NCBI GenBank assembly: GCA_036280835.1 | Contig: DASUQB010000271.1 | Span: forward strand, 1-63,265 | Source: Microbacterium sp. | GTDB lineage: Bacteria; Actinomycetota; Actinomycetes; Actinomycetales; Microbacteriaceae | Direction: 5' to 3' | Length of the DNA: 63,265 nt | In this document: positions 44,494 to 62,626 of the stretch, piece by piece | Position numbering within the stretch: position 1 is the stretch's first letter | Layout of the letters: the number at the start of each line of letters is the position of its first letter | Notes under the pieces: generated by a model | Seen by the model: the letters and a program-made list of their open reading frames with translations, nothing else | Database searches by the model: none | Told to the model about the DNA's origin: nothing | Made by a program: the position numbers and the translations under genes

Positions 44494-44591
44494 TTGCTCT
44501 CGCGCAGCGCGCCGGCGCCGCACGAACGGCGCGAGCGCGTCCCCCTTTCGGGGGGTTGCGCGACGACGCCGACAACCGGTGAAGTTGTCGG

Positions 44592-46244: not shown

Positions 46245-48563
46245 ATGCTCAACTTCCTGAACCACTTCACCGTCCCGGATGTCGATCACGTCACGGTGTT
46301 CCACGACGACCAGGACGCGGACCTGTTCTACATGGTGCCGGAGCTGCCCTCGATCCTGGCCCGGGAGGACGGCACCCCCGCCTTCACCCTGATCTCCTTC
46401 GCGCGCGACTTCTCGCTCATGGCCGACAAGGCCACGGCGCTGCCGACCGCGGAGACCGAGGGCGGCCTGCTCCAGGTCACGACGTCACTGGAAGTGAGCC
46501 AGGAGGATCAGGAGAAGATCCGCGACTACATCGCCGGCGGCATGGACGACAGGCCCCGCCCGATGCTCGACGGCAAGCGCATCATGCTGATGCGGCGGGC
46601 GGTCGGCGGCCGCACCGTGAAGCTGACCTACCCCACGTGGGTCGACGGCAAGGTCGGCTTCCACCTCTTCCCGAGCGGCGGAGAGACCTTCGTCAAGGCG
46701 ATCGAGGGATCCGAGAAGCCGTCGCTGGTCGCCAGCAACCTCGCCTCTTATACCGCGCTCCTCGGTCAGGAGGGGCTGCGTCTGATCCGCAACTCCATGG
46801 AGGACGGCTGGAGCCCCGGCACGATCAACTACGACATGTCGTTCGTGGCGCGCATCCCGAATCTCTCCGTGCACGTGTGGGGCGAGTCGCACGACGTCTA
46901 CAACGAGATCAAAGAGCACTCCACCATCACCGAGACGTACCGCAACGGCCAGAGCACCCGCACGTACCGGTATCCGCAGGTGTCGAGCCTCAAGGAGCTC
47001 CGCGACCTCAACACCGGGCTGCACATCGAGTACAACCTCGGCGACTTCCGGGGCGGCGGCGCCGAGGGCGAGGATCCGACCCAGGCGGTCGAGGATCTGG
47101 TCTTCAATATCGTGCAGCAGCTGATCACCCAGCGCTTCCTCACCCCTGGATTCGCCCCCGGACTCAAGGCGGAGAAGCTCGGCACCGATCCCCTCGCCCA
47201 CGGCGGCGGCGAGAAGATGCCCGGCGGCAACCAGCTGTGGCTCAAGGACTTCGAGCAGCGGATGGACGTGAAGATCGACTTCACGTTCGAGGGCACCACC
47301 AACTTCCTCGTCGAGAAGCACCCGAACTCCGAGCTGTTCGCGCTGGTCGACAAGGAGCAGGTCAAGAGGTCGATCATCGAGGCCGACCTGAGCAAGCCCT
47401 ACTTCACGCTGCTGGATGTGCCGGTGCAGGTCACGGCCGACTTCGACCGCGACCCCATCGCCGCGATCAAGGTGTTCCTCGAGTACGACCACGAGGACGA
47501 GCGGGGCGGCGGGCGAAAGCGCCAGGTCGAGGAGTTCCTCTTCGACTCCAACGATGACAAGTACTACTTCCGCACCGTGATGGCGCGGCTGCCCGACGGG
47601 ACTCCGAAGGACACCTACACCTATCGGAGCCAGATCATCTACAAGGCGAGCGCGAAGTCGGAGGACCTCGCGCCGGTGACCACCAACGACCGCAACCTCA
47701 TCATCGGCTACGACCAGCTGAACTGCGTCAACGTCGCGGTGTACTGGGGGGCGATCCCGGTGGATGCCGTGCAGCAGGTGCAGGTCGCCTTCCGCTACCC
47801 GGGGGTCGATCTGCCGTCGGCGACATCCGAGGTCGTGCTGCGCCTCGACGCGCCGCAGGCCGCCTGGTTCACCTACACCGGCGACCAGAAGTCGCAGGAG
47901 TACGAGTACGACGTGACGTTCTTCATGGCCGACGGCCAGCGCGTCGCCCTGCCCACGCAGCGGGCGTCGACGCAGCGCCTGATCATCAACGCGCCCTTCG
48001 AGGACAAGCTGAACGTCACGTTCGTGCCGCAGGGCGGCTTCCCTCCGGTCGCCTCGATCGTCGTCACGGCGAAGTACGCGGACGGCGACTACGAGGTCAG
48101 CGACGTGCACTCGTTCACGAGCTCCGCCGACATCTGGGAGTGGAGCATCGACCTGCGCGACCGGTCGAAGCGGGCGTTCGAGTACCGCGCCGACGTCACC
48201 TACGCCGACGGATCGTCGAGCTCCGGCGAGTGGCACCCGGGAGCGGAGGGAACCGTGCTGGTCGGGGACGTGGCGCGCGAGATGCTCGCGGTCGAGGTGG
48301 TCGCCGATCTCGTCGACATGACGAAGTGGAAGCTCGTCATCGTGCGCCTCGCGTACGACGACGGGGCGGGGCTCACGAGCGAGCACGTCGTCAAGCTCAC
48401 CGCCGTGCCGCCGAATCCCGCCGACCTGAAGTGGGTCGTCCCCATCAAGGACCCCGCCAAGCGCACGTACACGCACCAGATCCAGGCGTTCGGCCATGGG
48501 GGCGAGCGGCACACCGCCGGCCCGACCGAGAGCACCGACCCGCTGCTCGTGCTCGAGTTCTAG
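46245..48563 (+). CDS. Hypothetical protein, operon paralog A (N-terminal core plus repeated beta-rich modules)
   Basis: RBS GAGG; VTVFHDD..LFYMVP, GGLLQ, KPSLVASN, EG and EADLSKPYF motifs shared with downstream genes. Confidence 0.85.
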   Translation: MLNFLNHFTVPDVDHVTVFHDDQDADLFYMVPELPSILAREDGTPAFTLISFARDFSLMADKATALPTAETEGGLLQVTTSLEVSQEDQEKIRDYIAGGMDDRPRPMLDGKRIMLMRRAVGGRTVKLTYPTWVDGKVGFHLFPSGGETFVKAIEGSEKPSLVASNLASYTALLGQEGLRLIRNSMEDGWSPGTINYDMSFVARIPNLSVHVWGESHDVYNEIKEHSTITETYRNGQSTRTYRYPQVSSLKELRDLNTGLHIEYNLGDFRGGGAEGEDPTQAVEDLVFNIVQQLITQRFLTPGFAPGLKAEKLGTDPLAHGGGEKMPGGNQLWLKDFEQRMDVKIDFTFEGTTNFLVEKHPNSELFALVDKEQVKRSIIEADLSKPYFTLLDVPVQVTADFDRDPIAAIKVFLEYDHEDERGGGRKRQVEEFLFDSNDDKYYFRTVMARLPDGTPKDTYTYRSQIIYKASAKSEDLAPVTTNDRNLIIGYDQLNCVNVAVYWGAIPVDAVQQVQVAFRYPGVDLPSATSEVVLRLDAPQAAWFTYTGDQKSQEYEYDVTFFMADGQRVALPTQRASTQRLIINAPFEDKLNVTFVPQGGFPPVASIVVTAKYADGDYEVSDVHSFTSSADIWEWSIDLRDRSKRAFEYRADVTYADGSSSSGEWHPGAEGTVLVGDVAREMLAVEVVADLVDMTKWKLVIVRLAYDDGAGLTSEHVVKLTAVPPNPADLKWVVPIKDPAKRTYTHQIQAFGHGGERHTAGPTESTDPLLVLEF

Positions 48564-48576
48564 GAGGACAGTCGCC

Positions 48577-50895
48577 ATGCCCGAATTCGCTTCGATGAGC
48601 ACCGCGATGCTGGCCACGGCCATCGCACCGACCCTGCAGCTTCGCCCCCAGGTGCTCACGCGCATAGCCGCCCCGCGCCTGCTCACCCTCTCCGCGATCC
48701 GCCACCTGACCGTGATCGGGCAGGTCGACAACGCCCCGCACGTGCAGTCGGCTCCCGATGGCGTCGAGCGCGCCGTCGCCGGCGAGGACGGCATCCCGTA
48801 CTTCGTGCCCCAGGCCCGCGTCGCCGTGCGTTCCGAGGCGACGCGCGCCCCGCACGTCTTCCTCGAGCGCCGGGGCGGAGAGGTCTTCCTCCAGGTGTGG
48901 TTCGACCTCGTCCGCTTCCCGTCGCTCGCGACGGAGTCCAAGCCCCTGCCCGTGGCCGGCTACACGGTGGCGCTCGTCGGGGCCGACGGGGCGCACCGCA
49001 TCCCCTTCGATCGCTGCGACGACCTGCCCGCGCCCGAGAAGTCGGAGAACGTCGTGTCCCGGCTCTTCTGCGAGACCAAGGTCGACCCCAACGACGCGAT
49101 CGGACTGCTGCAGAGCGCCGGCTCGGTGTTCCGGGTCGAGGGCGATGTCAGCTTCTCGATCAGCCAGCCCGCGCCCGGGGCGACGCCCGGATTCGACCCG
49201 ACCAGCCTTCCGCCGCTGCTCATAGATCCGGTCCGCATCGCACCGCGGGGCCGGATGCGGGTCTTCGCCAAGCCGGTGGAGACGCCCGCGCCGGCCGCTC
49301 CGCTCCTCGCGGCGAGGCTGCAGATCTCGCCCTTCCTCTCGGAGGCCATCCTCGCGACGAGCGTCGCCGACGTCGCGCAGCCCGCACCCGCCGTGGTCTG
49401 GGCGACCCAGACGAAGCGGATGTCGCTCGGCGCAGCCGACAACAGCGGCGTGAACGGCTACTACGAGCCGGGCCTGATGGAGAACCGCGCGATCTACTCG
49501 CAGGTCACGAGCGGCTTCGGGTCGGAGCCGTGGTCCGAGTGGGTGGAATCTCCGAACGGCCGCTTCATGGACTCACCCGTGCCGGACCAGTTCTACGTGC
49601 TCCCCGACGAGTACCGGCTGACGTTCGACGCCGAGACCAGGACGCCCTCGATGATGGTGCTGCTGGTGCCGCCGAAGGCGGGTGCCGAGCCGTCCGGTCC
49701 GGTGTCCTTCGGCGGGGACTACACGCTGCGCACCCGCTTCAGCGTCGTGCCGTGGGTCGACCCCGCGCGCCTGGAGCGGCTGCGCGCAGAGATCGCCACG
49801 CACTCGGGACGGCCCTATCCGGAGCTGCTCGTGGGCGGCATCCGGAGCGCGACGGTGTCGCTTTCCGCGGTGCTGCACGAACTGGGATCGACCGTCGTCG
49901 GATCGACGGATGCCGCGGCCTCCGTCGATCCGCTCGGCTTCGACCTGGTGCTCGACTGCACGAGCGAGTTCTACAGCACACTGTCGCACCTGCTGGTCAC
50001 GGACGGGGTGGATGCCACGGTCACGGCCACGCTCGTCTCGACCGAGACCGACCCGCGGCGGGTAGACGTGCCGACGGTGCTGCGCCTGGACCGGCCGGCG
50101 TCGGATGTGCTCTCGGCGGAGCTCATCCCGGCGCCCCTGCCGGAGGCCCCTCCGGCTCCGCCCGTCGACGCCGCTCCGGTGCCTCCCGTCGATGGCGCAC
50201 CCGCCGATGGCCCCGTCGCCGCGACAGATCCGGTCGCCATGGCCGTGCCTCCGGCTCCCCCGACGCTGCGCGTCTTCAACCCGCTGCCCTACGCGGTGAC
50301 CGTCGCCCGGGCCGTTCCGAGCCTGCTGGTGATGGACGAGTTCGTGTCCGCACCGCTGGGGGCCGTCGCGGCCAAGGCGGAGCCGGAGTCGTTCACGCTG
50401 CCGCCGGCGGGCGCCGACGCGCCATCGTCGATCGACCTGACGCTCATTCCCGAGAGCACCGATCAGCCGCCCGTCTTCGGCCGGGTCGGCGTCGCGTTCA
50501 TCGGGATCGACATCGACATAGATCCGCAGCAGGTGCTGGCGAAGGCGCACGACACCGGCACGTCGGGCACCGTCTCGAGCGCCGTCAACGTGCGCTGCTA
50601 CCAGCTCGAGCACCCCGAGGTGCTCCCGCCCGCCCTCGCCGACGTCTTCGGCCTCGAGGTGCAGCTCCGACGGTCGGAGACGGCCGAGGCCGTCACCGTC
50701 TTCCTCACCCGCGACCAGGCGTCGGCCGACGTGCAGGTCGCATTCACCCTCGGCGACATCATGGCCGGCGCCAAGCCCGAGCAGCCGACCTTCCAGTGGC
50801 GTGCGCGCAACATGGCCGGCGCCGGGAACGGCGCGTGGTCCGAATGGGCCGCCATCACGGGCCGTCAGCTCTTCGTCTCCCCGAACGGGGTGTGA
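48577..50895 (+). CDS. Hypothetical protein, divergent operon paralog B
   Basis: RBS AGGAGG; internal PDQFYVLPDEYRL...TPSMM resembles the family N-terminal motif; Pro-rich linkers. Confidence 0.8.
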   Translation: MPEFASMSTAMLATAIAPTLQLRPQVLTRIAAPRLLTLSAIRHLTVIGQVDNAPHVQSAPDGVERAVAGEDGIPYFVPQARVAVRSEATRAPHVFLERRGGEVFLQVWFDLVRFPSLATESKPLPVAGYTVALVGADGAHRIPFDRCDDLPAPEKSENVVSRLFCETKVDPNDAIGLLQSAGSVFRVEGDVSFSISQPAPGATPGFDPTSLPPLLIDPVRIAPRGRMRVFAKPVETPAPAAPLLAARLQISPFLSEAILATSVADVAQPAPAVVWATQTKRMSLGAADNSGVNGYYEPGLMENRAIYSQVTSGFGSEPWSEWVESPNGRFMDSPVPDQFYVLPDEYRLTFDAETRTPSMMVLLVPPKAGAEPSGPVSFGGDYTLRTRFSVVPWVDPARLERLRAEIATHSGRPYPELLVGGIRSATVSLSAVLHELGSTVVGSTDAAASVDPLGFDLVLDCTSEFYSTLSHLLVTDGVDATVTATLVSTETDPRRVDVPTVLRLDRPASDVLSAELIPAPLPEAPPAPPVDAAPVPPVDGAPADGPVAATDPVAMAVPPAPPTLRVFNPLPYAVTVARAVPSLLVMDEFVSAPLGAVAAKAEPESFTLPPAGADAPSSIDLTLIPESTDQPPVFGRVGVAFIGIDIDIDPQQVLAKAHDTGTSGTVSSAVNVRCYQLEHPEVLPPALADVFGLEVQLRRSETAEAVTVFLTRDQASADVQVAFTLGDIMAGAKPEQPTFQWRARNMAGAGNGAWSEWAAITGRQLFVSPNGV

Positions 50896-50899
50896 CGCC

Positions 50900-51445
50900 G
50901 TGATCGCCTCGCCGGATCGAATCGTCTCCCACGGCGTCACGGCCGCGCGCATCGAGGGTGCCCGCTGGCGCTACGCCTCGCTCGCCCCCTGGCCGCAGAC
51001 GACCCCCGCCGGCGACCCGCTGATCTCCCTCATCGAGGCCGGCGGCTTCGCCCTGGCGCAGCTGTCCGTGCAGCTCGACCCTCCCGCCGCTGAGCTGGAA
51101 GCGCTCAGGACGGTGCTGCGCGGGGACGACGAGGGAGCGGCGCCCGTCATCCTCGAACCCGCCGTATCGGCCGTCACCGACATCCGGATCATCGCCCAGC
51201 CGGGCGGCGACGAGCGCGTCCTCGCGACCTCGCGCGGGAGCGGCTTCCCGCCGTACACCGCCGCGTTCTCTCTGCCGCTCGCCGGCCGTGATCTCGAGGT
51301 CGTGAAGGGGGCGCTCAGCGGGACGGAGCGGCTGATCGACGTGCGCTTCACCGTGCACGTCGACGGCACCGAGACCATCCGATCATCCGATCTCGCCGCG
51401 TGGGTGCGCGGCGAAGAGTCCCCACAGGAGGACCAGCCATGTTGA
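50900..51445 (+). CDS. Hypothetical protein C, stand-alone copy of the family N-terminal domain
   Basis: GTG start 4 nt after gene B; GDPLISL..GG, SGFPPYTAAFSLPL and GALSG..IDVRF align with the paralog cores. Confidence 0.72.
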   Translation: MIASPDRIVSHGVTAARIEGARWRYASLAPWPQTTPAGDPLISLIEAGGFALAQLSVQLDPPAAELEALRTVLRGDDEGAAPVILEPAVSAVTDIRIIAQPGGDERVLATSRGSGFPPYTAAFSLPLAGRDLEVVKGALSGTERLIDVRFTVHVDGTETIRSSDLAAWVRGEESPQEDQPC

Positions 51446-53913
51446 AGATCAGCAAGCAGTGGATCATCGAGGGGGTCACCGTCTTCGGCGACGACGCGTT
51501 CGACGACGTCTTCTACCCGATCCCCGAGACGCCGCGGTTCCGCACCGACGACAACGGCGCTCCGGTGTTCAAGTTCCTGAAGTACCGCACCCCGATCGAC
51601 CGGGAGGACGGCAGGCGCGGCGGCGGATTCGTGTTCTTCGACACGGAGTTCACGTTCACTCCCGCGGAGCTCGACAAGGTCAAGACCGCCCTCGACGCCC
51701 TCGTGCAGGAGTCTGCCCGCAAGCCGGACTTCCGGGCGTCGGTCCCTGGGTCGGCAGAGGCGCGGATCGGCACGATGACGTACACGCGGGGCACCGCCGG
51801 CCTGCTGCTCAAGGAGGACGGCGGAACGCTCATCGAGGCGGTGCGCGGAGCCGGCAAGCCGTCCCTGTTCGGCCGCAACATCTCGGCGTTCATGGTGGAG
51901 TTCTCGCCCGAGGGCGCAACCCTCTTCGAGCAGGCGCTGCAGGGCAAGGGAGGAGCGGTGCAGGTCGTCTACGACCTCTCGTTCGTCGCGAAGCTGCCCG
52001 AGACCACGGCGCGGGCTTGGTTCGAGGCGGAGAAGTTCTACTCCTACGAGCAGACCATCGACATCGACTGGGAGGTCTACGGCAGCGACGAGTACGTCGA
52101 CAAGATCACGGAGGAGTTCGAAGCCAACGAGACGATGGGCGTGGAGCTCGACGTCCAGCACGTCATCCCGGGCGATCCGGAGGGCACCGAGAAGCTCAAG
52201 CAGAAGATCCAGTCCATGATGGAGCGCTCGCTCCAGGACGCGGTGCTGCGGCTGATGATCCCCGACATCGAGGCGCTGGCGAAGGACGACCGGGGGATGC
52301 CGGAGGACATCGAGCACCTGAAGCGGTCGTTCGAGACCACCCGTGTGGCGTCGTTCGAGCAGGAGTATCGCGAGAACTCGGCGATCGAGTGGAACATCGT
52401 CCCGCAGGGCACCCTGCCGAACATCACGAACATGGTGGACGGCGACGGGAATCCCGTGCTCTGGGCCGACCACGCCACGGAGGTCGATCTCAACGACCCG
52501 TTCTTCCAGACGCTTCACGTGAAGGTCGGGGTGAACGCCGACTTCGCGGCGCTCCCGATCCACTCGATCGAGGTGAAGCTCGAGTACAAGCACGGCGGCC
52601 AGCACAAGGTCGAGGAGTACGCGTTCGCCACCGCCGACGACGTGGCCGACTTCGAGACCTTCATCGACGCCGGGCACAAGGAGTACTCCTACGTCTACCA
52701 GGTCAACTACATCGGATCGTCGAAGGCGTTCGTCTCGGCGCCGGCGACGACGAACGACACCGTGCTGACCGTGAACGTCGACGACATGGGCCTGCTCGAT
52801 GTCGACGTGCAGGCCGGAGACATCGACTTCACCAAGGTCAGCTCCGCGCAGGTGACGGTGCGCTACCAGGACACCGGCGTCGAGAAGTTCGAGGAGCAGT
52901 TCGCGCTGACGCAGGCGTCGACATCCCACCGGGTGCAGCACGTGCTCTACCAGCCCCGGCGCGCCCCGGTGCACTACCAGGTGGAGTACTTCCTGGCCGA
53001 CGGCCGCCGCATCCTGACCCCCGAGCAGTCGACGGAGCGCACGCCGATCCTCATCAACGACCCGCTCGGACGCACCCGGAAGTTCGAGGTGCGCGGTGTC
53101 GGCGACTTCGCCAACCGCATCGAGCAGATCTTCCTCGACCTCGTCTACGACGACCCGGCGAACGACTACAGCGTCGAGCAGTCGGTGGTGCTGACCGCCG
53201 GCAGCGAGGCCGTCTCGCAGCCCTTCGCCGTGCTCGGCGACGGCGGCGGCACTGTCCGGTACAGCGGCTCGATCAGGTACAAGGACGGCACCGTCAAGGC
53301 GATCGCACCCGCCGAGGCGACCGGCACGATCATGGTGGGCGACGTCGTGTCGTCGAAGCTCGACGTGCTCGTCGTGCCCGACCTCGTCGACTGGACGCAG
53401 GTGCGCCTGGTGCAGGTCGCGCTCCGGCACGGTCCCGACTCGAGCGGACACGCCAGGGACCTGATCTTCTCGCCGCAGCAGAAGGCCGCCGAGCGATGGC
53501 AGCTTCCCCTCCAGGACGGCGAGGACGCGAGCTATCGGTGGAGCGCCGTCTACTTCATGGCCGACGGCACGTCTCACACGACGGAGCCGGTCGCGTCGAC
53601 CGCGCCGTCGCTCGTGCTGCAGCCGCCGTCGGCCCTCAGCCCGGTGCCCGCGCCGGTGGTCGCGCCGTCGCCCGTGCCGACACCCACGCCGACCCCGGCT
53701 CCGCTCGCCGCGCCCACCCCGGTCCCGACGCCGACACCCACCCCGGTCCCGGCACCGACACCGGTCCCGGCACCGGCCACCCCGGCACCCGTCCCGGCGC
53801 CGACGCCCGCGCCGATCCCCGGCGGCACGCCGCCCCCGCCGCCCGTCCCCGGCGGCACCCCGCCTCCCCCGCCCGTCCCCGGAGGCACGCCGCCTCCGCC
53901 GCCCGTCCGCTGA
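51439..53913 (+). CDS. Hypothetical protein, operon paralog D with Pro/Thr-rich tail
   Basis: RBS AGGAGG; GVTVFGDD..FYPIP, GGGFVFF, KPSLFGRNISAF, EGATL and EVDLNDPFF. Confidence 0.87.
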   Translation: MLKISKQWIIEGVTVFGDDAFDDVFYPIPETPRFRTDDNGAPVFKFLKYRTPIDREDGRRGGGFVFFDTEFTFTPAELDKVKTALDALVQESARKPDFRASVPGSAEARIGTMTYTRGTAGLLLKEDGGTLIEAVRGAGKPSLFGRNISAFMVEFSPEGATLFEQALQGKGGAVQVVYDLSFVAKLPETTARAWFEAEKFYSYEQTIDIDWEVYGSDEYVDKITEEFEANETMGVELDVQHVIPGDPEGTEKLKQKIQSMMERSLQDAVLRLMIPDIEALAKDDRGMPEDIEHLKRSFETTRVASFEQEYRENSAIEWNIVPQGTLPNITNMVDGDGNPVLWADHATEVDLNDPFFQTLHVKVGVNADFAALPIHSIEVKLEYKHGGQHKVEEYAFATADDVADFETFIDAGHKEYSYVYQVNYIGSSKAFVSAPATTNDTVLTVNVDDMGLLDVDVQAGDIDFTKVSSAQVTVRYQDTGVEKFEEQFALTQASTSHRVQHVLYQPRRAPVHYQVEYFLADGRRILTPEQSTERTPILINDPLGRTRKFEVRGVGDFANRIEQIFLDLVYDDPANDYSVEQSVVLTAGSEAVSQPFAVLGDGGGTVRYSGSIRYKDGTVKAIAPAEATGTIMVGDVVSSKLDVLVVPDLVDWTQVRLVQVALRHGPDSSGHARDLIFSPQQKAAERWQLPLQDGEDASYRWSAVYFMADGTSHTTEPVASTAPSLVLQPPSALSPVPAPVVAPSPVPTPTPTPAPLAAPTPVPTPTPTPVPAPTPVPAPATPAPVPAPTPAPIPGGTPPPPPVPGGTPPPPPVPGGTPPPPPVR
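53818..53907 (+). repeat. 3 x 30-bp coding tandem repeat (PGGTPPPPPV)
   Basis: Directly visible at the 3' end of paralog D. Confidence 0.85.
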
Positions 53914-53951
53914 CCTCTCGACGATCCCGACACGAACAAGCGAGGACTCCG

Positions 53952-56246
53952 ATGCTCTATCTCAACCCGCCGTACTACGTGATCGACGGCGTCTCGCTGA
54001 TGCCCGATCACGAGGATCCCGAGCAGTTCTACTTCATGCCGATGTCACCGCACCTGAGCGTGATGGAGGAGGGCGATCTGCGCATCCCGCAGATCCAGGT
54101 CATCAAGTTCACCGGCCGCCCCACCCCCGAGAGCGATGTGATCTCCGGCGGGTTCCTCGACTTCGACTGCAACCTCGGGATCGACCCGGAGCGCCTCACC
54201 GCGATCGCGGAGCAGCTGCGGGCGGAGGCCGGCCTTTCCGGGCTGCCGCGCCTGACCCCCGTGCCGCTCATCGGCGGCACGGTGCGGATGATGCTGTTCG
54301 GCGCAGAGACCCCGAAGGAGGAGACCGGGCTTCCCGGCCGCCGCGAGGAGGAGGAGATCGCGGGGCCGAAGTTCGTGCAGAAGATCGTGCACCCCGCCTC
54401 CCCCTCCCTCTACGGCGACAATCAGGCCGCCTTCTCGGTGCGCCTCGACCAGGAGGGCGTCACGATCCTCGACCAGGCGATGGGCGCCGAGATGCTGCCG
54501 ATCGGCGTCGTGTACTCCCTCGAGTACGTCGGCCTCCGTCCTGCCTACAAGGTCGTCGTCACGGCTGAATGGGATCGGGTGCAGAAGCACTTCGAAGAGA
54601 CCGAGTCCGTCAACGTGCCGCTCATCGCGTCGTCCACGATCGAGAAGGTCATCGATGAGCTCGTCGAGAACCAGGTGATCTCCATCGACGCCGAGAGCCT
54701 GGTCGCCGACGAGGACGACACGGGCGGGGCGAAGGCCCGCTACGACGCCGCGCTCGCACAGGTGAAGGAGCTCGTCTTCGAGAACTTCTTCACCCCGAGC
54801 CTCGAGCCGATCGAGCGCCAGACCGGCGACACGATCGACGACTTCGGCCGCGTCCTCCGGACGATCGCGACGAGCGGCGCCACGTCGGTGTGGGAGCGCA
54901 AGGAGGTCGACATCACGCGGATCGACCGAAAGAAGCTCAACATCGAGATGACCGAGCGCACATCGGTCATCCGCGAGATCCATCCGCAGGGCCACTTGCA
55001 GGGCATCGTGCGCGCCGTCGAGGCCCAGGGCCTCGACATGAAGCGGTTCATCACCTCCGTCTCGCTCGAGGACCCCTTCTTCGCCCGGCGCACCGTGCGC
55101 GTCATCCCCCGCGCCGACTTCGCCACCGACCAGATCGAGTCGATCAACGTCTCGCTCGACTACGACGGCGCCGTGAAGAACGTCGTCCTCGACGCGGCGG
55201 CGGAGGAGCAGACCGTCGAATGGCAGAGCTCGCTGGAGGGCGGCCGCATGCGCGCACCCGTCGACGTGTCCTACGAGGTGCTGTTCTCCAGCGCCGCCAC
55301 GGGTCGCCCCCGCCGGATCGAGGCGTCGATCGGCGCCGTCGACGGCGACGTGGTGCAGATCGCCCCCAGGGACGGCGCGGGCTACGAGCTTCGGTGGATC
55401 AGCTTCACCGTCGTCGACTTCCCGTGGGACCTCTACCGGTCGATCGAGGTGCACTGCACCTACCTCGACGAGGAGAACGGCATCCACATCACGAACCACT
55501 ACGGGCTCACGGCGGAGCAGAACGGCGGGGCCTGGCCGGTGTTCGCTCTCGACCCGGCGAAGCGGACGGTGGGCTACCGCCTCATCCTGCACGGCGTCGA
55601 CGGCCGCGACTGGGACAGCGGCGACCTGACCACCGACACCGACCAGATCCGGATCACCGATCCGTTCGGCAGCAGGCGGGTGGTGGATGTCGTCGCGCCG
55701 GCGTCTCTGTTCGGCACGCAGCTCGACCGGGTCTTCGTCGACGTGCGATACGACGACGAGGAGAACGGCATCCACAAGCGGGAGTCGTTCGAGCTCAGCG
55801 CCGCCGACACCGCCACCAAGCGATTCACGGTCGAGCTCGCGGACCAGACGAAGCGCCGCGTCACGTTCAAGGTGTCGATGCTGCGCATCGACGGCATCGT
55901 CATCGACATCCCCGAATCGACCACGGAGCTCGAGCGGATCATCGTCACCCCGCAGATGCGGGGACACCGCACGGTGACCGTGACAGCCGACGGGGTCGAC
56001 TTCGTCGGCAGCGGCATCCGCGAGGCGACCGTCGAGCTGCTGTACGAGCGGGTGGAGCTCGGCCTGCGGCTCGCCGGCACGGTCACCCTCACGCCCGATC
56101 GCACCGCGGGCACGTTCGAGTACGACTTCGCAGAAGGCGACCCGGACTTCACCTACCGCGTCATCCACACCCTCGAGAACGGGCTCACGCGTCAGAGCGC
56201 CACCCGCACCTCGAGTTCCGACCGCGTTCTCGCGACGGTCGACTGA
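53952..56246 (+). CDS. Hypothetical protein, operon paralog E
   Basis: RBS GAGGA; GVSLMPDH..FYFMP, GGFLDF, PSLYGDNQAAFS, EGVTIL and SLEDPFF. Confidence 0.87.
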   Translation: MLYLNPPYYVIDGVSLMPDHEDPEQFYFMPMSPHLSVMEEGDLRIPQIQVIKFTGRPTPESDVISGGFLDFDCNLGIDPERLTAIAEQLRAEAGLSGLPRLTPVPLIGGTVRMMLFGAETPKEETGLPGRREEEEIAGPKFVQKIVHPASPSLYGDNQAAFSVRLDQEGVTILDQAMGAEMLPIGVVYSLEYVGLRPAYKVVVTAEWDRVQKHFEETESVNVPLIASSTIEKVIDELVENQVISIDAESLVADEDDTGGAKARYDAALAQVKELVFENFFTPSLEPIERQTGDTIDDFGRVLRTIATSGATSVWERKEVDITRIDRKKLNIEMTERTSVIREIHPQGHLQGIVRAVEAQGLDMKRFITSVSLEDPFFARRTVRVIPRADFATDQIESINVSLDYDGAVKNVVLDAAAEEQTVEWQSSLEGGRMRAPVDVSYEVLFSSAATGRPRRIEASIGAVDGDVVQIAPRDGAGYELRWISFTVVDFPWDLYRSIEVHCTYLDEENGIHITNHYGLTAEQNGGAWPVFALDPAKRTVGYRLILHGVDGRDWDSGDLTTDTDQIRITDPFGSRRVVDVVAPASLFGTQLDRVFVDVRYDDEENGIHKRESFELSAADTATKRFTVELADQTKRRVTFKVSMLRIDGIVIDIPESTTELERIIVTPQMRGHRTVTVTADGVDFVGSGIREATVELLYERVELGLRLAGTVTLTPDRTAGTFEYDFAEGDPDFTYRVIHTLENGLTRQSATRTSSSDRVLATVD

Positions 56247-56266
56247 GCAGGATCAAGGGAGTCGTC

Positions 56267-58039
56267 ATGTTGCAGCTCGGCACGGGGATGCAGACCATCC
56301 AGGGAGTCACCGTCTTCCCGGACCACGCGGACGAGGAGCAGTACTGGTACCTTCCCGCGCACCTCTCCATCGCGCGGCGACCGGAGGATGACTGGCCCCA
56401 GTTCACGTTCATGAAGTTCAAGCGCGAGGCGACCAGCGAGGGCGTCGAGGGCGGCGGATTCCTGATGTTCACGGTCGAGCTGACCCTGCCGGAGAAGGTC
56501 GAGGCGGAGATCCGCTCCAAGATCCCCTCGAACGCCCGCCTGAGCGCCGTCCCCTTCGACTCCGGCACCGTCGAGTGCATCGCGCTCAACCTGCAGGGAC
56601 CGGGGGGCACGACGGCCACCGTCAGCGATGTCGGCAGCTTCGTCGCCGTGCAGACGATCCTCGGCGCGCGCGTGCCCTCGCTCTTCGGCGACAACCAGGC
56701 GGTGTTCAGCCTCGCCCTCAGCGCCGAGGGAGCGACCCTGCTCGAATCGGCCTTCGCGCAGGGCGCCGCTCCCATCGGCGTGATCTACCAGCTGACCTTC
56801 ACCGCGATGCAGCCGGCTCTCGACGTGCGGATCACCGCCGACTTCGAGCGCATCTACAAGCACTTCAGCGCCGGGATCAACGCGAACGTCTACTACGTCG
56901 AGGTGGGCATCGAGGTCGGGCTGGAAGAGCTCGTCCAGAACGGCGCCATCACGATCGAGGTCACCAACTACTCGACCGCAGAGGACAAGTCCGACCAGGA
57001 GCAGGCGGCGATCGACTTCTTCAAGCAGCACCTGCTGCAGGCGTGGTTCACCCCGACGCTCACACCGGGAACGCTGCAGGGCGGGATGGCGACGGCGCCG
57101 CGCGCCGGCGGCGGAGCCGGGCTCTTCGGCCCGGCACGGACGGGCGCCGCCGAGACGAAACCCCCGGGTACCGGCACCGGAGCGCGGCCGCCAGGGGGCA
57201 CCGGGGGCCAGACGCCCCCGACCCCGCCGCCTCCTCCGGGCGGCGGGGCCCGGCCGCCGACACCGCCGCCGGGTGGCGCACCCGGCCGGCCCGCCGCGCC
57301 TCCCGCCGGAGGTCCCACGGGTCAAACCGGCCCGGCCGGGGGGACTCCGGCTCCGCCCGTCCCCGGGGGCACGACCGGTCAGCCGGCTCCCCCACCCGCC
57401 GGCGGGACCCCGGCTCCGCCGGCCCCCGGAGGCACGACCGGTCAGCCGGCCCCGACGCCGGGCGGCGGAGGCACTCCGCCGCCGAGCGGCCCCTCGGCGG
57501 CGACCCGGGACCTCTTCGTGCACTTCGTCGAGGAGGGCGGCACGGCGGGCGTGCACGGCGTGTACACCGTGAGCTACGAGGCCGGCGGGGTGCAGCACGA
57601 CATCTCGACGCCGCCGGGTTCCGCGAGCCAGGTGCACGTCCAGGTGCCGGGCGACTGGACCGCCGGAGGCCTCGCGGCGACGGCATCCACTCTGCCGGAG
57701 CTGACGATGGCGGATGCCGACCAGCTGCGCCGCCACGTGACGTCGGGCGAAGGGATCCTCGCCTCGGGCCAGCGCGAGGCGCCGCTGGGCATGGCGATCG
57801 GCACGATCGCCGTCCCACCCGGCACCGGTGACCTCTCCGCCACGGTGCGGCTGCCGGTCACCAGGACGACGGTGACGGCATCCTCCCCCGATGCGCTCGT
57901 GGCCGCGGTGTTCCCCGGCGGCCGGCTGGTGCAGCCCGGCATCTACGACTGCCGCCGCGTCGGCGCCACCCACACGTTCGAACTGATCACGCCCGGATGG
58001 CCGGGCTCCTTCGAGACACCCTCAGGAGGTGCGCAATGA
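56267..58039 (+). CDS. Hypothetical protein F: N-terminal half of a paralog, a G/P/T linker and an extra ~180-aa domain
   Basis: RBS AAGGGAG; GVTVFPDH..YWYLP, GGGFLMF, PSLFGDNQAVFS, EGATLL and WFTPTL. Confidence 0.85.
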   Translation: MLQLGTGMQTIQGVTVFPDHADEEQYWYLPAHLSIARRPEDDWPQFTFMKFKREATSEGVEGGGFLMFTVELTLPEKVEAEIRSKIPSNARLSAVPFDSGTVECIALNLQGPGGTTATVSDVGSFVAVQTILGARVPSLFGDNQAVFSLALSAEGATLLESAFAQGAAPIGVIYQLTFTAMQPALDVRITADFERIYKHFSAGINANVYYVEVGIEVGLEELVQNGAITIEVTNYSTAEDKSDQEQAAIDFFKQHLLQAWFTPTLTPGTLQGGMATAPRAGGGAGLFGPARTGAAETKPPGTGTGARPPGGTGGQTPPTPPPPPGGGARPPTPPPGGAPGRPAAPPAGGPTGQTGPAGGTPAPPVPGGTTGQPAPPPAGGTPAPPAPGGTTGQPAPTPGGGGTPPPSGPSAATRDLFVHFVEEGGTAGVHGVYTVSYEAGGVQHDISTPPGSASQVHVQVPGDWTAGGLAATASTLPELTMADADQLRRHVTSGEGILASGQREAPLGMAIGTIAVPPGTGDLSATVRLPVTRTTVTASSPDALVAAVFPGGRLVQPGIYDCRRVGATHTFELITPGWPGSFETPSGGAQ

Positions 58040-59472
58040 GCGGACAGACGCCGCCAGGACCGCCGAGCCCGGCGGCACCACCGCCCCCGCCCCCCGGGGG
58101 TGCGGCGACCCCGGCTCCCGCGCCGGCTCCCGCCCCCACGCCGGCACCTGCACCGGCCCCCGCACCGGCACCGGCTCCGGCTCCTGCTCCGGCACCTGCT
58201 CCCGCGCCTGCTCCGGGAGGGAGCGCCCCGACTCCGCCGGCGCCCGCGGGGGGAGGCCGGCCGTCCGTGCCGCCCGCTCCGGGCGGAACGCCCGCTCCCG
58301 GCGGAACGCCCGCTCCTGGCGGATCGCCCGCTCCTGGCGGAACGCCCGCTCCCGGCGGAACCACCGCCCCCGCCGCGGCGGCACCGGGATCCGGCGCCAT
58401 CCTGACGTTCTCGATGAAGGCCATCCAGCAGGAGGAGCGCAAGACGCTCGTCTTCGAGTACCACCGCGAGCAGGCCGTGACCCGCACCTACGCGCCGCAG
58501 TCGCTCATCGGCCTGCTGATCGACGATCTGACGGGTCCGGGACACTTCCTCGAGGTGGACCTCGACGATCCGTTCTTCCGCAGCCTCGACGTCGAGGTCT
58601 CGATGACGTCGGCGTTCGAGCCGATCGGGCTCCAGTCCGTCGCGGTCGCGCTCGACTACAGCGACGCGGACCACCCGCAGCGGCACCGCCACGCCGACCT
58701 CGTGTTCGATGCGGCGCGACCGCAGCCGCAGCACTGGATCGTGCCCATCGGCGACGACTACGACCTCGGCTTCCGTCCGCGGATCGAATACCACTTCGAC
58801 CCGCAGAGCGGCTGGGCAGCCGAAAGGAACGAGGTGGTGATCGAGCCCGGTCGCACCGAGGATCGCACTCTGCAGCTCGATCCCACCCAGCACGTCGGAT
58901 TCATCGCCGTCGAGGTGCGCCCGGGCCGGCTCGACCCCCTCGAGGTCGAGTCGGTGGAGGTCACCCTCTCGCATGCGTCCTCCACGGGCTGGTCGACCAC
59001 CCGCACGATCGAGATGCGGGCCGACAGCGCGCCGGAGTCCTGGCGCGTGCGCACCGCAGGCCCCGATGAGGTCGGGTACACGGTGCAGACCACCTATCAC
59101 CTCGTGGGCGGCGGCACGATCGTCCGGGAGCCGATCGGCTCCACCGCCGGCGTGTTCGCCGTGACGACTCCGTTCTCCGCGCGGGTGAACCGGCGGATCG
59201 ACTTCGCCGTTCCTGCGGGGCAGTTCGCCACGGTGATCGTGGATGTCGGCTACGACGACGGCACGCACCGCGTGGCGCGGCGCCTCGAACTCGACGGCTC
59301 GGCGCTGGCTCCGACGCGGGTCGAGATGGGGATCGTGGACCCGACACGGCGGGAGACCACGACGCAGGTGACCCTTCTGGGTGCCGATGGGGCGGTGGTG
59401 CGCGGAGCGCCGTTCATCGGCGAGGCCGAGTTCCTGAGCGTCGGGCCCGACGGCACAGTGACCGGAGGCTGA
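58036..59472 (+). CDS. Hypothetical protein G: Pro/Ala-rich leader plus the C-terminal half of a paralog
   Basis: RBS AGGAGG and ATGA overlap; YAPQ and EVDLDDPFF followed by beta-rich modules. Confidence 0.82.
   Translation: MSGQTPPGPPSPAAPPPPPPGGAATPAPAPAPAPTPAPAPAPAPAPAPAPAPAPAPAPAPGGSAPTPPAPAGGGRPSVPPAPGGTPAPGGTPAPGGSPAPGGTPAPGGTTAPAAAAPGSGAILTFSMKAIQQEERKTLVFEYHREQAVTRTYAPQSLIGLLIDDLTGPGHFLEVDLDDPFFRSLDVEVSMTSAFEPIGLQSVAVALDYSDADHPQRHRHADLVFDAARPQPQHWIVPIGDDYDLGFRPRIEYHFDPQSGWAAERNEVVIEPGRTEDRTLQLDPTQHVGFIAVEVRPGRLDPLEVESVEVTLSHASSTGWSTTRTIEMRADSAPESWRVRTAGPDEVGYTVQTTYHLVGGGTIVREPIGSTAGVFAVTTPFSARVNRRIDFAVPAGQFATVIVDVGYDDGTHRVARRLELDGSALAPTRVEMGIVDPTRRETTTQVTLLGADGAVVRGAPFIGEAEFLSVGPDGTVTGG
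58272..58361 (+). repeat. 5 x 18-bp coding tandem repeat (PAPGGT/S)
   Basis: GCCCGCTCCnGGCGGA(A/T)C repeated five times. Confidence 0.9.
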
Positions 59473-59473
59473 G

Positions 59474-60538
59474 GTGGAAGCGACGATCTCCGCGATCTCG
59501 GCCGGCGAACGACCGCTGGCCGCTCTCCTCGAGCGCGCCGCGGTCGTCCACCCCGAGGGCGTCGAGCGGGCGCGAAGGGAGCTCGAGGTGACGCTCCACG
59601 CCACCCGGGCATCCGCCATCGGAGAGCTCGCGTGGCGCGCCAGCTGCCTGACTCCCCTTCGCTGCCCCGTAGAGGTCGCCGTCACCTCGGCCCGGGCGGA
59701 GCTGCGCACGGTCGTCGACGTCGTCGCCCCCGAGGGCGACCGCCGGACGGCGCTCGACACGGCGATCGAGCTCGCCGGTCGTTTCGGCGCCGCCGGCCTC
59801 ACGCCGCGGTCGCTCGCGGCGATCAGGGCGCACCAGCGCGGCATCCCGCTGCGGTTCGGGGCGTGGCTCGGCAGCCGCCACGAGGCGGCGGGCACCCGGC
59901 ACAAGGTGTACGTCGAGACGGGTTCGGATGCCGATGCCTGGCGCCTGGTCGACAGTCTCGCTCCGGATGCGCGGCGCGTGCTGTCGAACGTGGGCCCCAT
60001 CCGCTTCCTCGGCCTGCCCCTGGACGGGTCGGGCGACGTCGAGGTGTACGTCCGCCCGCCGCTGCTGGACGACCAGCTGCTCGGAGCCTGTCTCGGGCGG
60101 GCGGGGCTGGGTCGCTTCGCCGAGCCGATGAGCGCCGCGATGACCGGTGGTCGCCCGAACGGGCTCGGGGGGCGCAATCACGGCCTCAGCGTCTCCGTCA
60201 AGGACGGCGTCGTCGCCGCAGTCGCCGGCTTCACCTTCGCGCGCCAGCGCCACCGGCTCGATCACCGCGTGCGCACAGCGGTGCTCGCTCGAGCCATCGC
60301 AGAGCGGTGGCCCTCGCTCGACCTCTACGAGTGCATCTCGCGGCCCCTCGCCGCACCCCGGCCGATGGGACGGCCCGTGCACACCGTGCTCTCCGAGGTC
60401 GCAGCGGCAGGCGCCGAGCACCTCGAACATCACATCGGGCTCGCGCCCCCTGCGTCATGGCAGGCGGATGCGGTCCACACGTCGGGTCCGATCGGTCCCG
60501 CGACCTCCCCCTATGAAAGTGAAGGAGTCCGATCATGA
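59474..60538 (+). CDS. Hypothetical protein, possible ABBA/DMATS-like prenyltransferase fold
   Basis: S-x-LT..PVE..LR, FGAW...KVY and FLGL...VEVY recall actinobacterial DMATS-family strands; fold call is tentative. Confidence 0.5.
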   Translation: MEATISAISAGERPLAALLERAAVVHPEGVERARRELEVTLHATRASAIGELAWRASCLTPLRCPVEVAVTSARAELRTVVDVVAPEGDRRTALDTAIELAGRFGAAGLTPRSLAAIRAHQRGIPLRFGAWLGSRHEAAGTRHKVYVETGSDADAWRLVDSLAPDARRVLSNVGPIRFLGLPLDGSGDVEVYVRPPLLDDQLLGACLGRAGLGRFAEPMSAAMTGGRPNGLGGRNHGLSVSVKDGVVAAVAGFTFARQRHRLDHRVRTAVLARAIAERWPSLDLYECISRPLAAPRPMGRPVHTVLSEVAAAGAEHLEHHIGLAPPASWQADAVHTSGPIGPATSPYESEGVRS

Positions 60539-61638
60539 AGCAGATCACGCTGGAGAATCTCCACTGCACCACCACCGAGGACTGGCTCGGGTCCGACGAA
60601 TGCCGGCTGGAGGTGTACAACGACGGAGAGCTCCACTTCGCGTACCGCCATGACCTCAACGACGACGAGAACTGGGCGCTGAACGCCTCGCTGCTGTTCG
60701 CGAGCACCTGCACGCTCCGCCTCTTCGATGAGGACGGCGACGTGCCGGGCGACGACGACGATGCCCTCGGTGTGGTGAGCATCGGAACGGCGGACGTGCA
60801 GCACGCGACGGCGACGTTCCGCGAGGACGACGCCGATTTCACGCTCACCTACTCGGTGATCGATCGCCCGGACATCTCGCAGAACGACGTCGCCACCTTC
60901 GCGATCGACCAGTTCGAGGCATCCACCGCGCCCGGCGTCTGGCCGCAGCTGTCGAAGGCCGACATCATCCAGGATCTGCGTGAGCGCCGCTGGAATCCGA
61001 CGGCCATCAACCAGGTCAACTCGAACTTCTGCGGGCCGACATCCATCGTCTTCGAACTCGCGCGCACCCAGCCCCGCCGCTATGCCGACCTCTGCCGCCA
61101 GCTCTACGAGACCGGCGGGTTCTGGTCGCGCACGCACCGCGTCGACGCCCCGCAGGGGCTGCGCGACACGCACGCGGGCCAGAACATGCGTCCCGCGGAC
61201 TGGATGCTGATCTCGACCATGCGCAATGACGAGAACGCCCTGTTCGGCGTCTCGCCGACCTCCAGCGGCCTGACCTCGCAGGTCGAGGGCATGACGACGC
61301 CGTGGGAGATGGAGGGGTGGACGAGCGAGCTGCTGCTCAAGGACAACGTGAGCAACAGCACGACGTTCGTGTGGGGCGAGTTCGACGCCATCCGGCATGC
61401 GCATCAGGTGTGGGCGGGCGGCGGCAGCGCCTTCATCATGCTGCACTCCGACATGTTCGCCGCCCCGAACGGGATGGTGCCGCCCTGGCCCGACCACTGG
61501 GTGGTGTACGCCGGCGGACTCGACGAGAGCGGGGGCCGCATCAAGTTCACGGTGTATTCCTGGGGCAACATCTATCCGCTCGACCTCAGCCTGGATCACT
61601 TCGAGAACTGCATGTTCGGGATCGTGACGGGGTTCTGA
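60535..61638 (+). CDS. Putative papain-like cysteine peptidase with an acidic, C2-like N-terminal domain
   Basis: INQVNSNFCGP (Q-x5-C), DHWVV and YSWG; N-domain EDWLGSDE and LFDEDGD..DDDALG; ATGA overlap. Confidence 0.65.
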   Translation: MKQITLENLHCTTTEDWLGSDECRLEVYNDGELHFAYRHDLNDDENWALNASLLFASTCTLRLFDEDGDVPGDDDDALGVVSIGTADVQHATATFREDDADFTLTYSVIDRPDISQNDVATFAIDQFEASTAPGVWPQLSKADIIQDLRERRWNPTAINQVNSNFCGPTSIVFELARTQPRRYADLCRQLYETGGFWSRTHRVDAPQGLRDTHAGQNMRPADWMLISTMRNDENALFGVSPTSSGLTSQVEGMTTPWEMEGWTSELLLKDNVSNSTTFVWGEFDAIRHAHQVWAGGGSAFIMLHSDMFAAPNGMVPPWPDHWVVYAGGLDESGGRIKFTVYSWGNIYPLDLSLDHFENCMFGIVTGF

Positions 61639-61688
61639 TCGGGCTCCGGGGGTGGTGGCGGCTCGTCGTGCGCGGCCAGAATGGCGTG

Positions 61689-62535: not shown

Positions 62536-62626
62536 CGAGCGCCGCAGCGCCCAGCGCCACGCGGTGACGTCTCCGGGTGATCCACCCTCTCTTCACCTGG
62601 AACATCCCGCGGACTACCGTGGCACT

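What the first reader, a model, noticed from the sequence alone, without database searches (positions are those of the whole stretch)
46245..61638. Uncharacterised 15-kb operon of one paralog family plus a protease and a prenyltransferase-like gene: candidate new multi-subunit system
Seen: nine co-oriented genes with gaps under 40 bp or overlaps, most with clear RBSs. A, D, E and F share ordered motifs: V(T/S)x(F/M)xD..(F/W)YxxP, then GG, then PSLxxxN, then EG, then a Y-x-(L/M)-x-(F/Y) strand, then (F/M)xP. A, D, E and G continue with (E/S)xxLxxP(F/Y)F and several beta-rich modules. B and C are divergent members. None has a signal peptide or TM helix. I recognise no named family, and no phage or secretion-system gene is present. 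Inference: retaining diverged paralogs in one operon suggests a hetero-oligomeric assembly matured by the co-encoded cysteine peptidase and transferase, such as a toxin particle, pore-forming complex or defence machine.
Basis: partly seen in the sequence, partly recalled or inferred. Interest (0 to 1): 0.92.

Follow-up and report, generated by a model that had tools for sequence, protein, structure and literature searches.

The report
Prenyl-anchored, complement-like prokaryotic pore complex
This soil-bacterium operon encodes a set of related proteins of an unnamed family, found with the same gene order in scattered bacteria and archaea, that are predicted to lock side by side and likely punch a pore in a membrane, likely held there by a lipid tag that the operon's own prenyltransferase would add and likely switched on by a protease, much as our complement system does.

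Summary
Observation confirmed. A, D, E, F and G are paralogs (blastp E 1e-12 to 1e-54). F and G are two halves of one gene that is fused elsewhere; B and C are distant members. No family library names A-I. The order B-(A or 3a)-C-D-E-FG recurs across at least 13 phyla, archaea included: D precedes E in 73 of 73 loci, F follows in 72 of 72.

The shared N-terminal domain folds confidently and carries a tip hairpin; in F it is a 20-residue amphipathic hairpin of membrane-spanning length. A complex model joins E to F/G through a continuous beta-sheet (0.78, best control 0.00). H is a DMATS-type prenyltransferase; I is a C2-plus-papain-like protease, replaced elsewhere by caspase, trypsin, subtilase or neprosin.

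New: D's hairpin tip tracks H. All 49 aligned loci with H have a short Trp/Tyr tip; all 17 without have Cys or an inserted aromatic helix (about five events; sign test not significant). Best reading: a complement-like, lipid-anchored beta-barrel pore complex (pore about 0.6; outward weapon 0.42). No function was tested.

The parts
46245..48563 (+). A, 772 aa: D-like paralog (shared N-terminal domain with a polar hairpin, then Ig-like repeats); stands where most other lineages have the ~600-aa '3a' paralog
48577..50895 (+). B, 772 aa: divergent member, orthologue of the ~800-aa first gene of other loci; carries an internal partial copy of the core domain
   Evidence: hhalign 99.1%; B or its orthologue in 59 of 59 loci with 8 kb upstream
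50900..51445 (+). C, 181 aa: core of the shared domain only, no hairpin; possible cap or nucleator (inferred)
   Evidence: hhalign 98.7% to residues 8-193; present in 52 of 59 loci
51439..53913 (+). D, 824 aa: core subunit with a polar, acidic hairpin, Ig-like repeats and a Pro-rich tail
52036..52113 (+). D hairpin, residues 200-225; Trp211 (52069-52071) and Tyr214 (52078-52080) are the candidate prenylation sites (inferred)
   Evidence: tip type tracks presence of H across 66 loci
53952..56246 (+). E, 764 aa: core subunit; N-terminal domain 1-378, then four Ig-like beta-sandwiches
   Evidence: AF2 models; fold searches
54603..54641 (+). E short hairpin, residues 218-230, hydrophobic tip of about half-bilayer length (inferred shallow anchor)
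   Evidence: column statistics; pLDDT under 50 at 218-224 in the monomer
56267..58039 (+). F, 590 aa: N-terminal half of the split paralog (domain 1-272), Pro/Gly-rich linker, then a 175-aa domain found only in the 8 Microbacterium-type loci
56864..56923 (+). F amphipathic beta-hairpin, residues 200-219: predicted membrane-spanning element
   Evidence: top period-2 score of 8 families, 0.44; 0 of 300 column shuffles reach it
58036..59472 (+). G, 478 aa: C-terminal half of the split paralog; Pro/Ala-rich leader 1-120, the long strand that completes F's domain (from 122), Ig-like repeats. Own RBS and ATGA overlap
   Evidence: same split in L014 and L016-L020, F ends alike in L013 and L015
58399..58482 (+). 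G residues 122-149: strand predicted to run in register along E 224-252, continuing the sheet across subunits
59474..60538 (+). H, 354 aa: DMATS-type (ABBA) aromatic prenyltransferase; family-invariant residues kept
   Evidence: profile to CymD E 2e-4, 6 of 9 PDB hits are DMATS-type
60535..61638 (+). I, 367 aa: C2-like N-terminal domain plus papain/C39-like cysteine protease (Gln160, Cys166, His321 invariant in 44 sequences)

Best explanation
The operon encodes seven genes of one unnamed protein family plus a prenyltransferase-like and a protease-like gene, and the family members are predicted to assemble edge to edge into a ring or arc that likely inserts beta-hairpins into another cell's membrane to form a pore, likely anchored by a prenyl group that H would add to D and likely unlocked by the protease. 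Shown from sequence: paralogy, fixed gene order, enzyme families, graded hairpins, and the link between D's tip and H. Predicted by a model: E binds F/G through a beta-sheet that continues across subunits, with the family's conserved PSLxGxN and PQG motifs at the interface. Inferred steps: (1) the proteins are made without signal peptides and leave by lysis; (2) H prenylates Trp211 or Tyr214 at D's tip, and in some lineages a class II cyclase converts the chain to a polycycle; (3) prenylated D and short-hairpin E dock on the membrane as a platform, with A/3a, B and C as nucleators or caps; (4) F/G, the only subunit with a full-length amphipathic hairpin, is added, perhaps in many copies like complement C9, and crosses the bilayer; (5) the protease, or a target's protease, cuts the Pro/Gly-rich linker in front of the long strand so that its hydrophobic start can insert; (6) linker inserts, such as the OmpA-like domain, and the Ig-like tails pick the target surface. 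The pore reading as a whole, outward or inward, is about 0.6.
For: Complex: score 0.78 (runs 0.79, 0.78, 0.71), best of 3 controls 0.00. That mark was reached by 116 of 157 solved and 2 of 215 mismatched pairs; the counts hold only roughly here (own alignments, three chains). Runs agree in at least 85% of contacts; partner pLDDT at least 76. Best pairs are G138-143 with E241-247 in parallel register, and F136-146 with E343-346. F hairpin: positions 200, 202, 204, 206, 208 are hydrophobic in 66-100% of 56 rows, 213, 215, 217, 219 in 98-100%; the alternate positions in 0-7%, except 218 at 32%; 0 of 300 shuffles reach its score. D tip against H in 66 loci: with H, 46 Trp, 1 Tyr, 2 Trp+Cys, no insert; without H, 9 inserted aromatic helices, 6 Cys, 2 Trp+Cys. 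E tips have no Trp or Cys in 48 of 48, a control. Prediction written down first: 6 of 6 genomes with Cys or helix tips had no H, 8 of 13 with Trp tips had it, and 0 of 14 H-less loci had an H-family gene elsewhere, one weak hit at 8e-5 aside. The cyclase-like gene with DxD(D) occurs only with H in 17 of 17 and 11 of 11 loci. Five unrelated protease classes fill the operon's slot. An OmpA-C-like domain sits in F's linker in 23 of 80 loci, two of them archaeal; peptidoglycan lies outside the cytoplasm and these archaea lack it (established knowledge). Wall hydrolases flank 4 loci among 56 neighbouring ORFs scanned.
Against: No pore, killing, lipidation or cleavage was observed. Only one interface was modelled, and since E and F/G are paralogs the pass may show a generic family interface rather than E-F specificity or a closed ring. 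An alternating hairpin can also pack against protein. The D-tip link rests on about 5 events: 4 independent pairs on starred branches, p 0.125 and 0.125-0.25, not significant. Tip classes were defined after seeing the first set. Trp+Cys tips fall on both sides (2 and 2). 5 of 13 predicted-H genomes had none; all five are MAGs, and their completeness was not given. Two metagenome rows duplicate GTDB rows. No protease was found in 22 of 44 loci with both flanks, and 6 of 50 have neither protease nor H. No shared cleavage motif precedes the strand. The solved structures that H matches are annotated as tryptophan DMATS enzymes. The OmpA-like insert has Ser where the canonical wall-binding Asp stands (motif recalled; alignment) and is absent from this window. 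No signal peptide and no conserved lysis or immunity gene explains export or self-protection.
Confidence: 0.42

Rival explanations
1. The same pore machine is aimed inward: a gasdermin-like suicide system in which an infection signal activates the protease and the lipid-anchored complex opens the producer's own membrane.
For: All parts look cytoplasmic. Operonic proteases and lipid anchors are features of bacterial gasdermins (PMC13475620, passages). Patchy, context-free distribution: 5 of 300 genus genomes, 1 of 400 phylum genomes. SIR2-TIR and STAND genes follow the operon in L060; trypsin-EAD1 and an NTPase precede a distant version in L159. J, next door in the window, resembles PADLOC PDC-M50A (E 4e-6).
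Against: No sensor gene is conserved. A peptidoglycan-binding-like domain in 23 of 80 loci has no ligand in the cytoplasm. No PADLOC model matches A-I. J has no homolog in the 82 loci checked.
Confidence: 0.2
2. The proteins build a non-lytic, membrane-anchored structure (cage, tube, coat or adhesive stalk). The hairpin tips and prenyl group only moor it, and the Ig-like tails do the work.
For: A continuous sheet across subunits fits a tube as well as a pore. D and E tips are too short or polar to span a bilayer. Tandem Ig-like domains and Pro-rich spacers are typical of surface structures.
Against: F's strict 20-residue alternation with Phe at both ends and a polar inner face is more than a mooring needs. 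Interchangeable proteases point to a triggered event.
Confidence: 0.2
3. H and the cyclase make a small prenyl-indole or terpenoid metabolite. The protein complex is a separate or carrier function and is not lipidated.
For: H's nearest solved relatives are annotated as tryptophan DMATS enzymes; the cyclase-like gene resembles small-molecule class II cyclases. H is missing from 14 of 50 loci.
Against: Loss of H coincides with a changed D tip in all 17 H-less loci and in 6 of 6 advance predictions. No other biosynthetic gene is conserved. An ABBA transferase with a cyclase acting on peptide Trp has precedent in NctPC (PMC13290415, passages).
Confidence: 0.08
4. The operon is cargo or an accessory of an extracellular contractile injection system (eCIS) encoded elsewhere.
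For: This genome has an eCIS-like locus on contig C426. Baseplate genes follow the operon in L038.
Against: Of the 5 genus genomes with the operon, only G326 is among the 15 of 300 with the eCIS-type tube family.
Confidence: 0.04

Closest known systems
Complement membrane attack complex and bacterial CDC-like toxins (CDCL; PMC11169675, passages read)
   Same: Paralogous subunits add edge to edge through beta-strands; a platform subunit plus a pore-extending subunit; proteolytic activation; amphipathic hairpins; CDCLs kill bacteria.
   Different: No sequence-profile match. Five to seven paralogs in one operon instead of two. One clear hairpin plus a third strand per subunit, predicted parallel across subunits. 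No signal peptide. Own prenyltransferase and often own protease.
Bacterial gasdermin-protease operons (PMC13475620, passages read)
   Same: Cytoplasmic proteins in operons with a protease of variable class; a lipid anchor near the hairpins (palmitoyl-Cys there; Cys appears at D's tip in 8 H-less loci here).
   Different: Gasdermins are ~270-aa single-gene homo-oligomers with a C-terminal inhibitory peptide. These are 750-1100-aa multi-paralog proteins with Ig-like tails and no gasdermin Pfam match.
DMATS prenyltransferases (CymD, PriB-like) and the RiPP prenyltransferase-cyclase NctPC (PMC13290415, passages)
   Same: H has the DMATS profile; in other loci it pairs with a DxD(D) class II cyclase, as NctPC joins an ABBA transferase to a cyclase acting on Trp.
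   Different: The inferred substrate is a loop of an 800-aa structural protein, not free Trp or a short peptide. This window has no cyclase.
Aerolysin-type and anthrax-PA-type beta-pore formers (recalled, not from a call)
   Same: A single ~20-residue Ser/Gly/Ala-rich amphipathic hairpin and activation by proteolysis.
   Different: Those are secreted homo-oligomers; no profile match here.

Membership tests
MACPF/CDC/CDCL | Match to MACPF or thiol-activated cytolysin sequence profiles | tested here: not met
   No such Pfam or NCBIfam family at E<=0.1 for A-G; family profiles hit no such PDB chain at E<=10
MACPF/CDC/CDCL | Central four-stranded bent sheet with two helix clusters (fold) | tested here: inconclusive
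   Model of E 1-378 searched; best rows are Ig-like sandwiches at Z 5.9 (rmsd 2.7, 85 aligned); an unlisted family is not excluded
MACPF/CDC/CDCL | Subunits join by edge-strand pairing into a continuous sheet | tested here: met
   Predicted only, for one interface
MACPF/CDC/CDCL | Amphipathic membrane-spanning hairpin | tested here: met
   Sequence pattern in F 200-219; one hairpin, not two
MACPF/CDC/CDCL | Pore formation after proteolytic activation | not testable with these tools
   Needs liposome and killing assays
Gasdermin | Gasdermin pore domain by sequence profile | tested here: not met
Gasdermin | Gasdermin fold | tested here: inconclusive
Gasdermin | Operonic protease | tested here: met
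   I in the window; 22 of 44 loci with both flanks
Aerolysin-type beta-pore formers | Aerolysin core fold with a pre-stem loop | tested here: inconclusive
   no profile match
DMATS aromatic prenyltransferase (gene H) | DMATS/ABBA profile over most of the length | tested here: met
   Profile positions 70-324 of 329 to CymD, E 2e-4; 6 of 9 hits DMATS-type; Trp_DMAT E 0.005 for 1 of 6 orthologues scanned, below the curated cut-off
DMATS aromatic prenyltransferase (gene H) | Conserved Glu and Lys/Tyr/Arg residues of the family | tested here: met
   E67, R78, K144, Y146, Y192, Y285 invariant or nearly so in 29 rows and kept in H; their catalytic roles are recalled, not mapped on a structure
DMATS aromatic prenyltransferase (gene H) | Prenyl transfer to an aromatic acceptor | not testable with these tools
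   Needs an enzyme assay
Papain-like/C39-like cysteine protease (gene I) | Gln, Cys, His in papain order | tested here: met
   Q160, C166, H321 invariant in 44 rows; Atlas cluster named C39-like, score 0.98
Papain-like/C39-like cysteine protease (gene I) | Pfam peptidase match or third triad residue | tested here: inconclusive
   No peptidase family among 44 members; Tyr or Phe stands before the conserved (S/T)W where papain has Asn (motif recalled)
eCIS | Sheath, tube, spike and baseplate genes in the locus | tested here: not met
   No PHROG match for A-I; such genes lie on another contig
Catalogued defence systems (PADLOC 2.0) | Match to system models | tested here: not met
   None for A-I

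The most novel reading that the evidence does not exclude
An undescribed superfamily of prokaryotic beta-pore formers with its own fold that assembles in a complement-like order from five to seven paralogs. It is anchored by enzymatic Trp/Tyr prenylation, and in some lineages cyclisation to a steroid-like polycycle, of a large folded protein, and is used by bacteria and archaea to attack walled cells.
Probability: 0.4. Interest if true: 0.95.

Novelty: categorically new. Interest (0 to 1): 0.88.

Why it matters
If right, it adds a third route to a complement-like attack complex, beside MACPF and CDCL, on a domain for which no named family or close solved structure was found. It would also be a case of a DMATS-type enzyme lipidating a folded structural protein. 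The swap among Trp plus transferase, Cys, and an inserted aromatic helix at one tip gives a single-residue, directly testable prediction. The family is large (2139 proteins at E<=0.001 among 50%-identity representatives), spans bacteria and archaea, and is annotated only as hypothetical.

Tried and rejected
Family libraries: nothing better than E 0.04 for A-I. PDB by sequence: nothing useful for E or its profiles.

Fold searches: the whole-E model returned only Ig/FnIII-like repeats (best Z 6.8). The N-terminal model gave no Foldseek match at E<=0.001 and best Z 5.9. No MACPF, CDC domain 3, gasdermin or aerolysin chain was among the 50 rows shown, which neither excludes them nor proves a new fold.

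Viruses and plasmids: no relative in IMG/VR contigs or in 50,697 phage records; 3 of 72,556 plasmid records hold distant versions.

F/G split as a frameshift or assembly error: rejected (RBS, ATGA overlap, same split in other genomes). A shared cleavage motif or a protease-specific site before the long strand: not found. Promoter and terminator scan: nothing above shuffles. Sequencing runs: no RNA holder listed; no reads were laid. eCIS dependence: not supported; the wider test across all 80 loci was not run. A metagenome scan anchored on D and a viral scan with the deeper alignment gave no usable pattern, so all locus sets are anchored on E and cannot show loci without E. An apparent F-H profile similarity (97.6%) was not followed up; it probably comes from over-long ORFs in my alignment.

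Earlier scan findings: none. Literature: searches found no description of this operon. The library lacks most subscription papers, Hubrich et al. 2024 was not held, and no supplements were read; source tables of comparative-genomics papers such as PMC7159879 could list these loci.
Full report
1. Observation. The nine ORFs are real and tightly coupled. F matches the first ~290 residues of E and G the rest, so they are halves of one subunit. G has its own RBS and overlaps F's stop by four bases. The split recurs in L014 and L016-L020; most other loci have one fused gene. C is the domain core without hairpin, and B is a distant member. No library names A-I. The nearest named relatives are Microbacterium proteins at up to 86% identity.

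2. Distribution. E has 164 homologs; its profile finds 2139 representatives at E<=0.001. A GTDB pattern scan confirmed 185 stretches and returned the best 80 loci: 76 bacterial, 2 archaeal, 2 unassigned, in 13 named phyla. The operon is rare within lineages: 5 of 300 genus genomes, 1 of 400 phylum genomes. The window's flanking genes were not found in 12 actinobacterial loci checked, which suggests mobility. Order is fixed. In the 80 loci, D precedes E in 73 of 73 with room, F follows in 72 of 72, and of 59 with 8 kb upstream all have B or its orthologue, 52 have C, 50 have 3a and 10 have A. In 65 metagenome loci the figures are 54 of 55 and 35 of 38. Two plasmid loci hold distant versions with five to seven family members. 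All sets are anchored on E.

3. Structure. AF2 of E gives an N-terminal domain and four beta-sandwiches (pLDDT 80). The domain alone, with a 148-row alignment, reaches pLDDT 86.5 and pTM 0.79. It has long strands at 181-206 and 328-343, a helical head at 207-306, and low confidence at 218-224 and about 290-320. Its best structural matches are Ig-like sandwiches spanning residues ~30-350 at Z 5.9 or less. I read this as an Ig-like core with a stalk and head inserted; I could not view coordinates.

4. Assembly. One complex job took F 1-272, G 122-190 and E 1-378, with E as partner. Score 0.78 against a best control of 0.00; 116 of 157 solved and 2 of 215 mismatched pairs reach the mark, counts that hold only roughly for this job. 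Runs agree in at least 85% of contacts; partner pLDDT at least 76. G138-143 pairs in parallel register with E241-247, and every residue of G122-149 and E224-252 is in the interface at the same offset. F's PSL motif (136-146) touches E343-346, next to the conserved PQG. This supports edge-to-edge assembly. It does not show ring closure, stoichiometry or that E prefers F.

5. Membrane signature. In the F family, residues 200-219 alternate strictly, with Phe at both ends and small or polar residues on the other face. It is the top such segment among eight families, and 0 of 300 column shuffles reach it. E's hairpin is 13 residues with a hydrophobic tip; D's and A's are polar. G's strand starts with hydrophobic residues at alternate positions (123, 125, 127, 129), level with E's tip. 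It is preceded by a low-complexity linker of 76-504 residues in fused genes. In 23 of 80 loci the linker holds a ~240-aa insert whose profile hits OmpA-C-like domains in 14 of 15 PDB rows, best E 0.0017; single members reach Pfam OmpA only weakly (2 of 20).

6. Enzymes. H's 29-row profile hits CymD (E 2e-4) and five other DMATS-type chains. H is in 36 of 50 loci with 3 kb after F. A cyclase-like gene with DxD(D) (two wrong-frame rows dropped) occurs in 17 GTDB and 11 metagenome loci, always with H. The window has none, and the distant L159 locus has one with no detectable H. I has invariant Gln, Cys, His, a C39-like Atlas match and a C2-like N-terminus (Pfam C2 in 9 of 44 members, weak; ferlin and MCTP hits at E 0.02-0.8). 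Elsewhere the slot holds caspase (17 loci), the I type (6), trypsin (4), subtilase (3) or neprosin (G047). Half of the loci with both flanks (22 of 44) show none by these models.

7. D's tip tracks H. Aligning D showed three tip types. I noted predictions for 19 undecided loci and searched their genomes: 6 of 6 predicted to lack H lacked it; 8 of 13 predicted to have it did, and the five misses are MAGs of unreported completeness. None of the 14 H-less loci had an H-family gene elsewhere. Metagenome loci added 12 with H, all with short Trp tips (two also Cys), and 3 without, all with inserted helices. Combined, leaving out L068 (misaligned) and the undecided loci, 66 rows give: H present, 46 Trp, 1 Tyr, 2 Trp+Cys; H absent, 9 helix, 6 Cys, 2 Trp+Cys. 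On a tree built without the tip columns H changes five times; the tip changes five times in the first set and five or seven in the combined set, depending on how Trp+Cys is scored. Independent pairs never go the wrong way but are too few (p 0.125-0.25). Close relatives differ tellingly: ENFWSEDD with H (L056) against ENFCAEDD without (L044); a short Trp tip with H (L069) against a WWSWLL insert without (L061). An inserted aromatic helix is a plain membrane anchor, so the simplest reading is that H supplies a lipid anchor on D and that the tips face a membrane. How the Cys would be lipidated is unexplained.

8. Mechanism and target. These parts fit a complement-like order: anchored platform subunits with short or lipidated tips, then a subunit with a bilayer-length hairpin, unlocked by cutting a flexible linker. 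F is duplicated in L088, L089 and L123. For an outward target: the wall-binding-like insert, present even in archaea, and wall hydrolases or phospholipases beside 6 loci. For an inward target: no export signal, no immunity gene, and defence-type neighbours in L060, L159 and here. I put the pore at about 0.6, outward action at 0.42.

9. Comparison and novelty. It would work like MAC/CDCL (PMC11169675, passages) and shares operonic proteases and lipid anchors with bacterial gasdermins (PMC13475620, passages), but fails their sequence-profile tests, and the fold tests are inconclusive. Transferase plus cyclase on Trp has a peptide precedent (PMC13290415, passages). PMC7159879 (passages) covers EAD1 systems and has no occurrence of 'prenyltransferase'. 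PMC11952106 was seen only as a search listing. Eight searches found no description. Verdict: real, conserved, undescribed in what I could search; categorically new as a system; interest 0.88.

Noticed in passing
window 61686-62255 (+), gene J: 189-aa membrane protein right after I; matches PADLOC candidate PDC-M50A (E 4e-6) and two unknown PHROGs weakly. No homolog in the 82 loci checked, so probably not part of the system.
   Followed up: partly
BFVD entry A0A7S7YF07: A 417-aa uncharacterised Medusavirus stheno protein is the only structural match under E 0.001 to E's N-terminal domain (E 4.8e-6, TM 0.29, rmsd 17). It may be a giant-virus member of the fold; only a literature listing was checked.
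   Followed up: partly
G000 contig C426:193-11300: eCIS-like locus (sheath, two gp19-type tubes, downstream structural genes) in the same genome; 15 of 300 other genus genomes have the tube family.
   Followed up: partly
L159:5414-30843 (Paracoccus plasmid NZ_CP102356.1): Distant subtype with about seven family members, phospholipase D, a cyclase-like gene, tyrosinase and trypsin, directly behind a trypsin-EAD1, EAD1 and NTPase trio.
   Followed up: partly
L158:10709-27773 (Pararhizobium plasmid NZ_CP119567.1): Distant subtype with two D-like genes and a 588-aa gene weakly like protease I placed before F.
   Followed up: partly
L066:1-6456 and L076:1-6965 (minus strand): A D-like, A and B trio is transcribed divergently from C-D-E-F, suggesting that A and B form a separable module.
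   Followed up: no
window 57509-58036 (F residues 415-590): A 175-aa domain unique to the Microbacterium-type loci sits where other lineages have the OmpA-like insert; no family match. Possible alternative targeting domain.
   Followed up: partly
L070:253-4311, L031:1-3456, L027:821-3430: B orthologues carry variable extra domains: DUF7452 and DUF346 repeats, and a weak HmuY-like match. DUF7452 was not found in the paper library.
   Followed up: partly
L027:5259-6242 and L035:5208-6191: The two Methanosarcinales loci have an extra 327-aa D-like gene between 3a and C.
   Followed up: no
proteins P0155, P0164, P0166, P0175, P0198, P0207: An E-like subfamily with a shorter core, one or two extra C-terminal repeats and an LLGF motif before the long strand; one is from a Chloroflexota genome. 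Gene context not seen.
   Followed up: partly
window 43435-45932 and 62564-63265: Flanks are ordinary: LacI regulator, amino-acid permease, FAD-binding oxidoreductase.
   Followed up: yes
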